From Octopus vulgaris (Eukaryota), in contig OX597835.1 of NCBI GenBank assembly GCA_951406725.2, forward strand, positions 18,848,001 through 18,912,000: a DNA stretch of 64,000 nucleotides, written 5' to 3'. Every line of letters begins with the position of its first letter. Positions within the stretch are counted from its first letter, which is position 1. The notes beneath the pieces were generated by a model. It was not told the origin of the DNA, did not search any database, and saw only the letters and a list, made by a program, of their open reading frames with translations. Positions 10,688 through 60,265 of the stretch are shown here, piece by piece. The position numbers and the translations under genes were made by a program.

Positions 10688-11692
10688 GAGGAGTACCTGA
10701 CCCGCCTGTTCAGGACGACTTTCGGGCCAGGGCCATGAACAACTTCCAGAGATCCCTGGCCTGGCAGTGCTACCGAGAAGCGCTACCCGTTCGGGATAAG
10801 CTCTACAGACACGGCTCGAGAAACACGGGGCCGACCTGCCCGAGATGCGGTCAAAGCGACGAAACCGTTCTGCACGCACTCGTGCAGTGTCCAACAATTT
10901 CCGACCTGTGGGCTTATGTCGAACAACTGCTGTCACGTGTGGGACGAGTCGGTTTATCAGCTGAGTCTATCGTCAATATATTCACGCCTCCTTCCTTCAA
11001 ACGGGAAGGAAGAGCTATTTTCATCATCCTTGTGGCTATGGCGAAAGAATGTAACTGGTGGACGCGTCTGAAAGGATTGGAGACAAACACTTTCCTCTCT
11101 GGTCAATCTCTCATCAACTTCTTCAAGTACCACTTGAAAAGGAAAGTGGGAGTAGAGAGACAAGTTTTGTCTAGCGAATGTTTTAAAAAAAGAAGGGTGA
11201 ATGTAGCAAGGATGGCACGTATGAATGACGAAGCCACCTTGAGCATAATCCTATGAACCCAGAAATTGAAAACAGAGGGTTACCCACTTGCAAACAAATG
11301 TGGTAACATATAACAATATTGACCAAGGTTACCGTGGTCTTTTTCGTAGGCTTTTCTTCCCACGGATAAACCTTACTTGCTTTCCCCTTTACACCATATA
11401 TCATAACACTGTGATACACGATCCCTATTGATCGTTCTTTTTTTCCTCTTCCCCCTTTTTTTCCCCTTTTTTCTTCTTTTTTCATTTCTCTTTCCTTTTG
11501 TTCCTTTTCCTTTCCTTTTTTTGTTCTTTTTATTCTTTTTATTTTATTCAATTTTTTTTTGTTTTTGTTCTTTTCTTCCCTTTTACGATCCCTCTTGATC
11601 GAAAACCTACGCCACCTTCATCCCCCAAAAGAAAAGCTCTACCTTGTAACTTGTCCCATCTGTGTGCAGCCCTGTGTGGCCAATAAAGAAAC
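10688..11692 (+). mobile_element. 5'-truncated Tx1/L1-type LINE: ORF2 C-terminus (zf-RVT) and 3' UTR
   Basis: ORF 10735-11256 LAWQCYREALPVRDKL..CPRCGQSDETVLHALVQC (CxxC..ETxxH..C zinc finger); T-rich 3' UTR; AATAAA at 11682-11687. Confidence 0.9.
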
Positions 11693-57379: not shown

Positions 57380-57609
57380 TACTCTTTACTCTTTACTCTT
57401 TTACTTGTTTCAGTCATTTGACTGCGGCCATGCTGGAGCACCGCCTTTATTCGAGCAGCTCGACCCCGTGTCTTATTCTTTGTAAACCCAGTAATTATTC
57501 TATCGGTCACTTTTTGCCGAACCGCTAGGTGACGGGGACGCAAACACACCAGCATCGGTTGTCAAGCAATGCTAGGGAGACAAACACAGACACACAAACA
57601 CACAAACAC

Positions 57610-57703
<94 letters not shown>

Positions 57704-57846
57704 TACGACAGGCTTCTTTCAGTTTCCGTCTACCAAATCCACTCACAAGGCATTGGTCGGCCCGAGGCTGTAGTAGAAGACACTTGCCCAATATGCCACG
57801 CAGTGGGACTGAACCCGGAACCATGTGGTTGGTTAGCAAGCTACTT
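57380..57846 (-). mobile_element. SINE family A split by a 2.2 kb insertion; its 5' end resumes at 60053-60090
   Basis: ..GGTTGGTTAGCAAGCTACTT | insert | TAGCAAGCTACTTACCACACAGCCACTCCTGCGCC rebuilds the intact head. Confidence 0.93.
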
Positions 57847-60052
57847 TATTTCAAAACATTTGCGATAAAGGCAGTACACAGATTAAGTTAGCTTTGCGGG
57901 CTGGACGAGGACATTAATGAGGTGAATGATAATGAAAGAAAGATGATAAGGATGGGAGAAGACAAAAAGCGCCCGCCGACTTTCGCTTCTCTAAAACATT
58001 GTTCTTTTTAAAGATAAACACAAAACGAGGTATTAAACCTCTTACAATTTTTACAAAGCGAGGTATTAATCCTCTTACAATTTTTCAATTTTTGGACTTA
58101 AGTCCATTACTAATAATACATATCGTCCTCGAAATAGCTTGTGCCCTCCACCATCAACCACGCCTCCCTCAGAACGTAATCAAGTTCCGAGTTCGCGTCG
58201 CCCGGGACCAAGTTATAATCTTCATTGAGCTCCTTTAGCCCAAGCGTCACGTCGAACGCCACGGCCTCCACAGCTACCTGCGGAGGCCATTCGGGGTCCT
58301 GTGTGAAGGCTAAAGGTGCTCCCATGTAGTGCTCTTCCATCACTTTTTCAATTTCTCCTCCTCTATAGAAGAGGACCAATACGTTCAGTTCTTTCGTTGG
58401 CGGCACAGTTCCTGCCAACGGTATTCCTTCTCTTGTCGGTGGCACAACCCCAACCGACGTAGTTCCGGGACATTCCGGTGCTACACTGACAGCCGGTAAT
58501 GTCCCGTTTTTCTTCCTCTTTTTCTTTTTTTTCCCTTTTCAACTGAGGGAGGGTGCGTCTCCTCCGCGGCTGGAAGATTCTCCTTCCTCTCCTCATCCCT
58601 ATTATCCTTTGGTGAGCACCCATTGTTGCTCACCTTCCTCTTTCGGCCTCTGTTTGAGGAGTCCTCTGCTTTCTCGGCCGTTATCGTTCCCTCTTCTAGA
58701 GGGGTTTTACTTAACTGTTCCGGGATCCTATTTTGTTCCCGAGGACAGTTCTTCTTTATGTGGCCGGACTCCAAGCACCGATGACACTTAGTGGGGCGAC
58801 CCTCAAGCATCACCGGGTACCTGCACCCGGCCATTTTCAAAAAATCTGGAAGAACCAGATTGGCTGATTGGGTCCACAGGGTCAAAATTGCTTTTGACCC
58901 AACCCAAGCAGCCGCAGGAAGAACTTTTACATTAAGGAGCTTAGTTTCGCTGTCACCCAGACCCCGGCGGAGAGTCTCCTCTATCCACTCGGGTTCTATG
59001 TCGGGTGGCAATCCGCAGATCCAAGCTTTCATCAATTTCTTTTTTTTGTACGTGGGCAGGAATAAGATTTCCTTACCCTCCAGGGGTTTGCTAGCAAATT
59101 TGCAAGCCTCTTCAGGGGTGTCAAATAGCAACCACACCGTTGCATATTTGACACCCCTGGAAATGAATTTAATTGTTGGCAAATACTCTACCAACTCCTC
59201 CTCAATTGCCGACTTTTCGAATAGGGCGATGGTGTCGAGTGCCTTGGAGTAGGTTCTCAACACCACCGTCCTATCTTCACGGTCTTTTAACCACTTTTTA
59301 GGTGGTATGATTTCCCACTCCAAAATTTTGTTATTTTTCATTGCCATGTATTTTTTAAAATATATTCAAATTAAACACAAAAAGCAGGAAGAAAAAAGTT
59401 CAAAAGTCCAAATAAAATTTGATAGATTTTTGAAAAAACAAAAAGGAGAAAGCACAACAGAAGGGAAGAAACCAACGGAAAGTCGCAATAAAGAAAAAAA
59501 ACAAAAGGGGTGGTTAAATGAAGTTCAAAAGAAAGTTGATAAACAGAAAAAACACAGCAAAAATATTCTGGCCTTGCGGTACTTCCGGCCTGGGTTGAAC
59601 CTGGAACGCCGCAACTGCAACACAACCTCCACAAAAATGGGTCCGAAAGGTAATCCAATAGTGGCTTATTTTTATAATTTTCTTGCGAAGTACTCTGACA
59701 AGGGAATACATTCAACAAACCCAAACACAGCACTGGCTACCGCCAACGGTAATTTTAACAGTAACTGTATTGAATTCTGAGGATACGCCCCTCTACTGTT
59801 TTTTCTTTTTTTTTTTTTTCAATGAACACAAAAACGGCAGCCGCCGAGAGCAGGCGAAATTGTCTCAGAGTTGGACACAACTTACTGAAATAATAATTGG
59901 CACGCAATAAATTATGCCCAACTCATAATAAACAAAATCACTTACCTCGACAACTTTCCGTTTTTGGTCTTTTTTCTTTAATTGAACGGAGCTGATTGAC
60001 TCGCGTCCACTCTAGCTGAACAGGAAGCAACTGACTAATTGCGCATGTGCGC
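57847..60052 (-). mobile_element. Non-autonomous ORF1-only retroelement (HAL1-like architecture, Tx1-like) with 13 bp TSD
   Basis: TSD TAGCAAGCTACTT at 57834-57846 and 60053-60065; about 700 bp 5' UTR, gag-like ORF, short 3' UTR ending GAAATAAA; no EN or RT motifs seen. Confidence 0.85.
58481..59347 (-). CDS. ORF1/gag-like nucleic-acid-binding protein with CCHC zinc knuckle; probably continues in the -1 frame to 58110
   Basis: 288 aa; CHRCLESGHIKKNC is CX2CX4HX4C, preceded by VMLEGRP; AWICGLPPDI is RRM-like; basic low-complexity tail. Confidence 0.85.
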   Translation of the reverse strand: MAMKNNKILEWEIIPPKKWLKDREDRTVVLRTYSKALDTIALFEKSAIEEELVEYLPTIKFISRGVKYATVWLLFDTPEEACKFASKPLEGKEILFLPTYKKKKLMKAWICGLPPDIEPEWIEETLRRGLGDSETKLLNVKVLPAAAWVGSKAILTLWTQSANLVLPDFLKMAGCRYPVMLEGRPTKCHRCLESGHIKKNCPREQNRIPEQLSKTPLEEGTITAEKAEDSSNRGRKRKVSNNGCSPKDNRDEERKENLPAAEETHPPSVEKGKKRKRGRKTGHYRLSV

Positions 60053-60265
60053 TAGCAAGCTACTTACCACACAGCCACTCCTGCGCCTATATATAGAAGT
60101 ACACATTTGCGAGTTTTAGACGCCATAACTTCGACCTTATCGTTTAACTTTGTAAAAGCCGTTCCTAAATCAGTCTAGGATCATTGGATTTAAGTTGAGA
60201 CTAAACATTCCATATTAATTTCATTACGATGGGGTTCCTGTGTGCAGACGATAAAATAGTCAATG

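What the first reader, a model, noticed from the sequence alone, without database searches (positions are those of the whole stretch)
57834..60065. ORF1-only 2.2 kb retroelement inserted into the tRNA-like head of a SINE
Seen: an exact 13 bp TSD brackets 2206 bp that splits a family A SINE between its A and B boxes. The insert has a long 5' UTR, one gag-like ORF (RRM-like region plus CCHC knuckle) and a 3' UTR ending in AATAAA, with no endonuclease or RT. The perfect TSD shows it was inserted in this form or deleted cleanly afterwards. Known: HAL1 elements are ORF1-only L1 derivatives, and several Tx1-clade families target small-RNA genes, tRNA clusters or microsatellites. Inference: a half-Tx1 non-autonomous family that may use abundant SINE heads as a target.
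Basis: partly seen in the sequence, partly recalled or inferred. Interest (0 to 1): 0.78.

Follow-up and report, generated by a model that had tools for sequence, protein, structure and literature searches.

The report
ORF1-only retroelements targeting octopus SINE heads
In an octopus genome, hundreds of copies of a one-gene jumping element sit at exactly the same base inside the promoter of a very abundant short repeat; a full-length partner element that lands at the same base likely moves them, and older families sit in an older version of the repeat, so they appear to have followed their target as it changed.

Summary
Confirmed and larger than reported. The 2206-bp insert belongs to a young ORF1-only LINE family: 217 exact 3' ends genome-wide, 212 followed directly by the same SINE-head site. 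None of 80 ORF1 loci inspected carries ORF2. ORF1 (two RRM folds, CCHC knuckle, an unassigned C-terminal domain; 414 aa when intact) is under purifying selection (core dN/dS 0.12-0.26 between families). A 5.45-kb autonomous L1/Tx1-group LINE (endonuclease, RT, zf-RVT) occupies the same nucleotide in 30 of 30 copies and shares only a 3' hairpin with it. Insertions are independent, not a composite unit. Corrections: the 13-bp 'TSD' is partly the element's own target-like 5' end; AATAAA is completed by target bases; this copy is frameshifted. An older ORF1-only clade sits in an older SINE variant and begins with that variant (12 of 12). It works like HAL1 riding on a Tx1-Mar-type site-specific LINE; the SINE target, target tracking and mixed arrays were not found in ten literature searches. 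Tx1-clade membership and all biochemistry are untested. New variant of a known kind.

The parts
60066..60088 (-). 5' part of the host tRNA-like SINE head, with A-box-like motif at 60067-60077; insertion follows ...GTGTGGT
   Evidence: sequence; same head precedes the element in other loci
60053..60065 (-). upstream copy of the 13-mer: part true duplication, part the element's own target-like 5' end
   Evidence: at positions 11-13 the upstream copy follows the element in 30 of 31 informative cases
59348..60052 (-). 5' UTR (705 nt); its first ~360 nt are exchanged between subfamilies
   Evidence: (L025-L030 match only from position 361 and carry two other 5' ends)
58110..59347 (-). ORF1 (414 aa in intact copies), frameshifted in this copy at the A-run 58525-58532
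58799..59269 (-). two predicted RRM folds (about residues 27-100 and 104-183)
   Evidence: AlphaFold model pLDDT 70-90 there; Foldseek hnRNPA2B1, NONO E 1.7e-4; VIA Z 7-8, rmsd about 3 A over 70-83 residues to single RRMs
58745..58786 (-). single CCHC zinc knuckle
   Evidence: Pfam zf-CCHC E 0.02, 0.008 in an intact copy; both under the curated cut-off
58143..58382 (-). conserved ~85-aa C-terminal alpha/beta domain of the ORF1-only clade, absent from the partner's ORF1; out of frame in this copy
   Evidence: alignments A1, A2; model pLDDT 79, pTM 0.68; no clear fold or family match
57847..58109 (-). 3' UTR ending ...GAAATA, no poly(A); 33-bp tandem duplication at 58020-58085
57861..57873 (-). 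3' hairpin (4-bp stem, 5-nt loop) 14 nt before the end, shared in sequence with the autonomous partner; one stem base is substituted in this copy (57864)
   Evidence: ten family representatives
57834..57846 (-). downstream copy of the 13-mer = original SINE target sequence
57380..57833 (-). rest of the host SINE: B-box-like motif 57805-57815, body, (TA)n, second part and short tandem-repeat tail
   Evidence: sequence; BLAST of the restored site against the window

Best explanation
The insert is one copy of a long-lived clade of ORF1-only, non-autonomous LINEs that sit at one nucleotide of an abundant octopus tRNA-like SINE head, and they are most likely moved in trans by a 5.45-kb autonomous L1/Tx1-group LINE found at the same nucleotide. 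Shown: shared site, ORF1-only anatomy, selection on ORF1, independent insertions, shared 3' hairpin, element-encoded target-like 5' end, mixed head-to-tail arrays, and an older clade confined to an older SINE variant. Inferred mechanism: the partner's APE endonuclease nicks the bottom strand at or within a few bases of GTGTGGT|AAGTAG; its RT recognises the 3' hairpin of either RNA; the RNA probably runs a few bases into the downstream SINE (its polyadenylation signal is completed by target bases), so it can pair with the nicked DNA and prime without leaving a poly(A); the finished cDNA ends in a target-like sequence that anneals at the second nick, giving mostly full-length copies and rebuilding a cleavable site at the 5' junction, where further elements stack up. 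ORF1 is probably kept because it packages its own RNA in cis while ORF2 is borrowed.
For: Site: 30 of 30 copies found with the insert alone end at the same SINE base; 212 of 217 exact family-A 3' ends are followed by AAGTAG, and the 2 exceptions fetched are the same site with one substitution. Partner: full-length 5.4-5.5 kb copies with ORF1 + ORF2, one with an intact 1133-aa ORF2 carrying Exo_endo_phos, RVT_1 and zf-RVT over cut-off; 108 exact 3' ends, 30 of 30 examined at the site; copies 97-99% identical. Independence: insert and flank distances uncorrelated (Mantel r -0.07, p 0.74, n 29); inserts 0.3% apart sit in SINEs 12-13% apart; 5'-truncated copies of many lengths join the SINE head directly. 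No ORF2 after ORF1 in 0 of 80 loci. dN/dS of the ORF1 core 0.12-0.26 between families; 17 synonymous vs 8 non-synonymous shared changes among 12 intact family-A copies, p 2e-6. ORF1-only ORF1s form one clade (SH-aLRT 100) with an Octopus sinensis protein, apart from all ORF2-linked ORF1s. 5' end: 30 of 31 informative sites at positions 11-13 follow the element; one 5' type has its own variant upstream in 22 of 27 copies and downstream in 0 of 27; two loci carry a second SINE head or second target copy in front of the element (L154, L005). Tracking: 12 of 12 copies of an older clade sit in the rarer AAGAAG SINE variant, and all 10 readable 5' ends begin with it; that variant is 3,123 of 56,068 exact empty sites counted. 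Control: 29 of 30 loci of sister zf-RVT families are not at this site.
Against: No biochemistry or retrotransposition assay; trans-mobilisation rests on shared site and hairpin. The RNA's start and end are unknown; read-through at either end rests on two loci and on junction logic. An autonomous family with an ORF1 close to the ORF1-only clade could have been missed, since genome searches score only the best candidates (135 of 13,509 and 150 of 11,558). The 80 loci overlap those, and 3 of them have lost their 3' end. dN/dS within family A used copies chosen for intact ORFs; between-family dS is near saturation. The ORF1-only clade sits on a long branch in a quick tree. One sister-family copy (L071) lies 2 nt from a 5' junction of this system. 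Age order of SINE variants is rough (12, 12 and 30 copies; the youngest set was taken from filled sites). The hairpin is the predicted minimum-energy fold in most but not all tails.
Confidence: 0.88

Rival explanations
1. One ancient insertion made a composite SINE-head + ORF1 + SINE-tail unit that then amplified as a whole, so the shared site reflects common descent, not targeting.
For: Every copy has SINE sequence on both sides; the element's RNA may include part of the SINE head (L154).
Against: Insert and flank distances are uncorrelated and near-identical inserts sit in different SINE subfamilies; several unrelated families, autonomous and not, share the site; 5'-truncated copies break at many points yet join the same head; empty heads outnumber filled ones by roughly a hundredfold.
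Confidence: 0.03
2. The elements are recent internal-deletion derivatives of the present autonomous family (or this copy is a one-off deletion), and ORF1 is a passenger.
For: ORF1s are homologous (E 9e-23); HAL1 elements arise by such deletions (PMC5753468); a different ORF1-only element with a partner-like ORF1 was seen once (L139).
Against: 28% amino-acid identity and no alignable DNA with the partner; separate clade spanning two species; purifying selection across near-saturated dS; an extra conserved C-terminal domain.
Confidence: 0.04
3. Targeting is real but comes mainly from protein tethering to RNA polymerase III factors on the SINE promoter (possibly through ORF1), with the endonuclease only setting the exact base.
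For: The site abuts the A box; ORF1 is conserved in the ORF1-only clade and has a domain of unknown role. Tethering of this kind is recalled for Dictyostelium TRE5-A; my search for it returned nothing relevant.
Against: Single-base precision and one orientation; repeated insertion at 5' junctions where the B box is already 2-5 kb away (arrays of up to 5); the partner lacks the C-terminal domain yet has the same specificity.
Confidence: 0.12

Closest known systems
HAL1 (half-L1) elements of mammals
   Same: Non-autonomous L1-group derivatives that encode only ORF1p and arose more than once (PMC5753468, passages).
   Different: Here ORF1 is of the RRM + CCHC type, there is no poly(A), insertion is at one nucleotide of a SINE, and ORF1 is only 28% identical to the partner's. 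No site specificity is mentioned for HAL1 in the passages seen; the primary HAL1 paper was not held.
Tx1-clade LINEs that target other transposons: Tx1L in Tx1D (Xenopus); Tx1-Mar with SINEU in Mariner-N4_AMi, Tx1-9_AMi in Harbinger (crocodilians)
   Same: APE-type LINE preferring a site in another repeat, with non-autonomous riders sharing the target (PMC4494074, passages and section 15).
   Different: The target here is a tRNA-like SINE head; the riders are protein-coding ORF1-only LINEs, not SINEs; specificity is about 98% at one base against a >20% criterion in that paper; succession of target variants is tracked.
HeT-A and other ORF1-only telomeric retrotransposons of Drosophila
   Same: ORF1-only families that share a niche with autonomous partners and form head-to-tail arrays; about 40% of telomeric families lack ORF2 (PMC13534243, passages).
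   Different: Jockey clade, chromosome ends; here L1/Tx1 group and tens of thousands of dispersed internal sites.
R1Bm, SART1Bm and R2 (target sequence carried in the RNA)
   Same: Target-like bases at the RNA end anneal to the nicked DNA and raise accuracy (PMC7265360, passages); co-transcription with the target strengthens specificity in R2 (PMC4494074).
   Different: Those target rDNA or telomeric repeats and are autonomous; pairing here is inferred from junctions only.
Dada DNA transposons in tRNA genes
   Same: Insert at the A box of a polymerase III promoter and form tandem copies (PMC3706591, passages).
   Different: DNA transposons in real tRNA genes; 'SINE' does not occur in that text.

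Membership tests
HAL1-type (ORF1-only non-autonomous L1-group LINE) | Single ORF homologous to an L1-group ORF1, no ORF2 | tested here: met
   28% identity, E 9e-23 to the partner's ORF1; 0 of 80 loci with ORF2
HAL1-type (ORF1-only non-autonomous L1-group LINE) | Multi-copy family transposed in the ORF1-only form | tested here: met
   217 exact 3' ends; 30 of 30 about 2.2 kb
HAL1-type (ORF1-only non-autonomous L1-group LINE) | ORF1 under purifying selection | tested here: met
HAL1 proper (mammalian Repbase families) | Derived from mammalian L1 with Transposase_22-type ORF1p and poly(A) tail (tail recalled) | tested here: not met
   No Transposase_22 hit; RRM + CCHC architecture; no poly(A). 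It works like HAL1 but is an independent case.
L1/Tx1 group (autonomous partner) | ORF2 with APE endonuclease, RT and C-terminal zinc motif, closest to L1 ORF2p | tested here: met
   Pfam hits over cut-off; human L1 ORF2p E 1e-63 against R2 E 7e-19
L1/Tx1 group (autonomous partner) | Type I ORF1p (RRM + CCHC), typical of Tx1-like non-mammalian elements (PMC5203782) | tested here: met
Tx1 clade | RT groups with named Tx1 elements (Tx1L, Keno, Kibi, Koshi) in a tree | not testable with these tools
   No named Tx1 reference among 105 ORF2 relatives, their clusters or the Atlas rows
Sequence-specific non-LTR retrotransposon | Most copies at one site in one orientation, by independent events | tested here: met
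Sequence-specific non-LTR retrotransposon | Endonuclease cleaves the target | not testable with these tools
   needs purified protein
tRNA-derived SINE (host) | tRNA-related head with A and B boxes | tested here: inconclusive
   Box-like motifs read from sequence; ARAGORN found 0 tRNAs in 5 loci and Rfam no tRNA match in one empty head. Identification with the octopus 'OK' SINE is recalled, not from a call.

The most novel reading that the evidence does not exclude
A three-tier parasite system that tracks a moving target: an autonomous LINE and a guild of protein-coding ORF1-only riders use a SINE promoter as landing pad, transcribe from within the SINE head through into the SINE body, and use those target-derived RNA ends to pair with, and so choose, the matching SINE subfamily; as the SINE's sequence was replaced over millions of years the riders re-captured the new target at their 5' ends. 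That would be RNA-assisted target choice in an APE-type LINE and a recorded co-evolution between a SINE and its site-specific invaders.
Probability: 0.4. Interest if true: 0.82.

Novelty: new variant of a known kind. Interest (0 to 1): 0.68.

Why it matters
It joins two separately known habits, ORF1-only LINEs and LINEs that target other repeats, in one young and apparently active system with hundreds of natural insertion events to read. The junctions record how both ends are joined (no tail, target-like 5' end, 0-16 bp true duplications in truncated copies) and how specificity changes when the target itself evolves. It makes a standing question testable: why an element would keep ORF1 but not ORF2, and whether ORF1 acts in cis while ORF2 is borrowed. 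A compact APE-type LINE with about 98% single-base precision that likely moves cargo marked by a short hairpin is also a candidate for targeted gene insertion. For annotation, these copies are split by SINE masking and one relative is filed as an uncharacterised host protein (P0001).

Tried and rejected
The repeat finder on the whole window was swamped by microsatellites. Empty alleles: contigs of 4 DNA-type runs from 3 organism labels cover the insert and show joints that skip it, but these joints can come from any of the many empty SINEs, so they say nothing about this locus. No listed run is on record as RNA; 4 runs guessed to be RNA cover 23-30 of 30 bins and show no splice joint in the 5' UTR; not used as evidence. 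Rfam found no ribozyme or other structured RNA at gathering level in 5 element loci, only microsatellite-driven miRNA matches. The C-terminal domain matched no Pfam family, solved sequence or clear fold (best VIA Z 5.2); this does not show that the fold is new. Atlas rows for stored homologues gave CCHC/RRM and RT clusters without a clade name. The zf-RVT search did not find the partner but supplied the sister-family control. Within family A, 5' type and target subfamily are associated (37 of 56 vs 6 of 24 in the A13 variant, Fisher p 0.001), but the partner splits 7:7 and timing could explain it, so it is a hint only. Rows dropped: L016 from the Mantel test (truncated flank); copies with indels in the upstream repeat from the position count (25 listed); family labels were faulty for partner copies and were redone. 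Absolute dating was not attempted. Supplements of PMC13282606 (repeat library) were not read, and Repbase and Dfam cannot be searched here, so an existing library entry may exist.

Full report
Observation. The 13-mer is exact at 57834-57846 and 60053-60065 and brackets 2206 bp on the minus strand. Taking the insert out restores a SINE like four other heads in the window, split just after its A-box-like motif. The insert has a 705-nt 5' UTR, one ORF and a 263-nt 3' UTR ending in AATA. In this copy the ORF reads 288 + 142 aa because an A-run is one base short; intact copies give 412-414 aa. The genome is an octopus by inference: the only full-length protein relative found is from Octopus sinensis, 63% identical. 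The species was not determined.

A family at one base. A DNA search with the insert alone scored 40 of 3,225 candidates; all 30 loci fetched are about 2.2 kb and end at the same SINE nucleotide. Genome-wide, the family's last 26 bases occur 217 times exactly and 212 are followed by AAGTAG; the two exceptions fetched are the same site with one substitution. These are lower bounds. Exact empty sites number 27,299, 25,646 and 3,123 for three SINE variants, so only a small share of heads is filled.

More families and the partner. Searching by junction (239 matches) and reading 30 + 40 loci, partly the same places, showed further ORF1-only families of 2.0-2.5 kb and a 5.45-kb element with ORF1 (about 382 aa) and ORF2. 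One copy has an intact 1133-aa ORF2 with endonuclease, RT and zf-RVT domains; its best solved relative is human L1 ORF2p. Its own 3' end occurs 108 times and 30 of 30 examined are at the same site; 12 copies are 97-99% identical. Thirty loci of sister families (mostly 50-67% identical in the ORF2 tail) end differently and 29 are elsewhere; one lies 2 nt from a junction of this system. All SINE-site families share a 4-bp hairpin motif about 14 nt from the end, while family A and the partner share no other alignable DNA.

Independent insertions. Among 29 family-A copies (one dropped for a truncated flank) mean insert distance is 2.4% and flank distance 7.5%, uncorrelated (r -0.07, p 0.74); inserts 0.3% apart lie in SINEs 12-13% apart. 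5'-truncated copies of 96-1651 bp join the SINE head with 0-2, 7, 12 or 16 identical bases, as expected for target-primed reverse transcription. A composite unit is therefore rejected.

ORF1 is kept on purpose. No ORF2 follows ORF1 in 0 of 80 loci from three searches (partly overlapping); 74 have the SINE junction within 1.5 kb by rule, 2 more by eye, 1 is doubtful and 3 have lost the 3' end. Core dN/dS is 0.12-0.26 between families at dS up to 1.8, and 0.14 for shared changes among 12 intact family-A copies. ORF1-only proteins are 59-68% identical between the main families and 25-29% to the partner types, and form one clade with the O. sinensis protein, on a long branch in a quick tree. The model shows two RRM folds and a knuckle, the type I architecture described for Tx1-like elements (PMC5203782, passages), plus a folded C-terminal domain without a match.

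The 'TSD' is partly the element. In 87 in-register insertions, where the target differs from the usual sequence at positions 11-13 the upstream copy follows the element in 30 of 31 cases; one 5' type carries its own variant upstream in 22 of 27 copies and never downstream. L005 has a 16-17 bp target duplication followed by a second target-like copy, and L154 a short duplication followed by a second SINE head, which suggests that the RNA can begin inside the head. At the 3' end no poly(A) was seen in any junction read; AATAAA spans the junction, whereas sister families carry it inside the element. Read-through and RNA-DNA pairing at both ends is my inference, with precedent in R1Bm, SART1Bm and R2 (PMC7265360 passages; PMC4494074 passages). 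Because the 5' junction rebuilds the target, elements stack: 5 of 55 insertions picked without regard to flank have another member directly upstream, and one head holds five elements over 11 kb.

Target tracking. Twenty more distant ORF1-only loci include a clade of 12 whose copies all sit in the AAGAAG variant, with all 10 readable 5' ends beginning with that variant; their end branches (0.016-0.056) are longer than the median (0.007). That variant is 5.6% of the exact empty sites counted, and at most 3 of 217 family-A ends can be in it. Older partner-like elements show the same range of variants. Pairwise divergence of the three SINE variants (0.155, 0.136, 0.045) fits that order but rests on small, unequal samples.

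Comparison with print. HAL1 is defined as an ORF1-only L1 derivative (PMC5753468, passages). Tx1 families are known in piggyBac, Mariner, Harbinger and LTR elements, small-RNA genes and microsatellites, with SINEU riders (PMC4494074, passages and section 15; PMC3747384, passages). ORF1-only niche specialists are common at Drosophila telomeres (PMC13534243, passages). Dada DNA transposons use the A box of tRNA genes (PMC3706591, passages). A 2026 Octopus vulgaris annotation lists 13 recently active L1-Tx1 families but has no occurrence of 'target', 'nested' or 'autonomous' in its main text (PMC13282606, passages; supplements not read). Octopus SINE papers were seen only as citations (PMC4758252, passages). 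Ten searches (listings only unless named above) returned no SINE-head-specific LINE with ORF1-only riders; subscription journals, Repbase and Dfam were out of reach. Unchecked notes of this scan describe LINEs at SINE-like heads in three other genomes, so the target class may be recurrent.

Verdict. A real, young, site-specific system: a new variant that works like HAL1 on a Tx1-Mar-type carrier. Anatomy, specificity, independence and selection are shown; trans-mobilisation, nick positions, RNA ends and Tx1-clade membership are inferred. Interest 0.68.

Noticed in passing
window 10688-11692 (+): 5'-truncated sister L1/Tx1-group LINE (58% to the partner's ORF2 tail) flanked on both sides by (TCTA)n, with a similar 3' hairpin followed by an internal AATAAA; possible microsatellite-targeting family.
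   Followed up: partly
window 26662 (+), 30204 (+), 53021 (+), 21527 (-): Four empty SINE heads representing all three target variants.
   Followed up: partly
L309-L310 = G000:C4:151498725-151510117: Five ORF1-only elements of several families head to tail inside one SINE head; other mixed tandems in L023, L128, L139, L159, L247; three partner 3' ends about 5.4 kb apart at C9:2664555-2675458.
   Followed up: partly
L139 (upstream 1.45-kb element): A different ORF1-only element at the same site whose ORF1 groups nearer the partner type, suggesting a second origin of the ORF1-only form; L342 is followed by a similar 5' end.
   Followed up: partly
L025-L030, L110, L117, L118, L134-L136, L244: Modular exchange: the same 5' ends occur on different ORF1 families, and some copies join one family's ORF1 core to another's C-terminal domain and tail.
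   Followed up: partly
L093/L163: A 90-bp internally deleted copy (5' 45 nt + 3' 43 nt) at the site; whether it forms a family is unknown.
   Followed up: no
window about 59940-59950 and 5' UTRs of L025, L030: A splice-donor-like AG|GTAAG about 100-130 nt into three unrelated 5' UTRs, and promoter-like GCGCATG and CTTCCTG motifs near the 5' end (motif names recalled); no spliced form seen.
   Followed up: partly
L061-L090: Several sister-family copies appear to be followed directly by the 5' end of another element, and the hit list has arrays at about 5.4-kb spacing (C2:73046133-73068136), hinting at their own tandem or nested targeting.
   Followed up: no
P0115 cluster: Sister sequence to the ORF1-only clade in the tree (long branch) whose four members lie on contigs of 1.85-1.93 kb, the size of an ORF1-only element; weak hint of such elements in another organism.
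   Followed up: no
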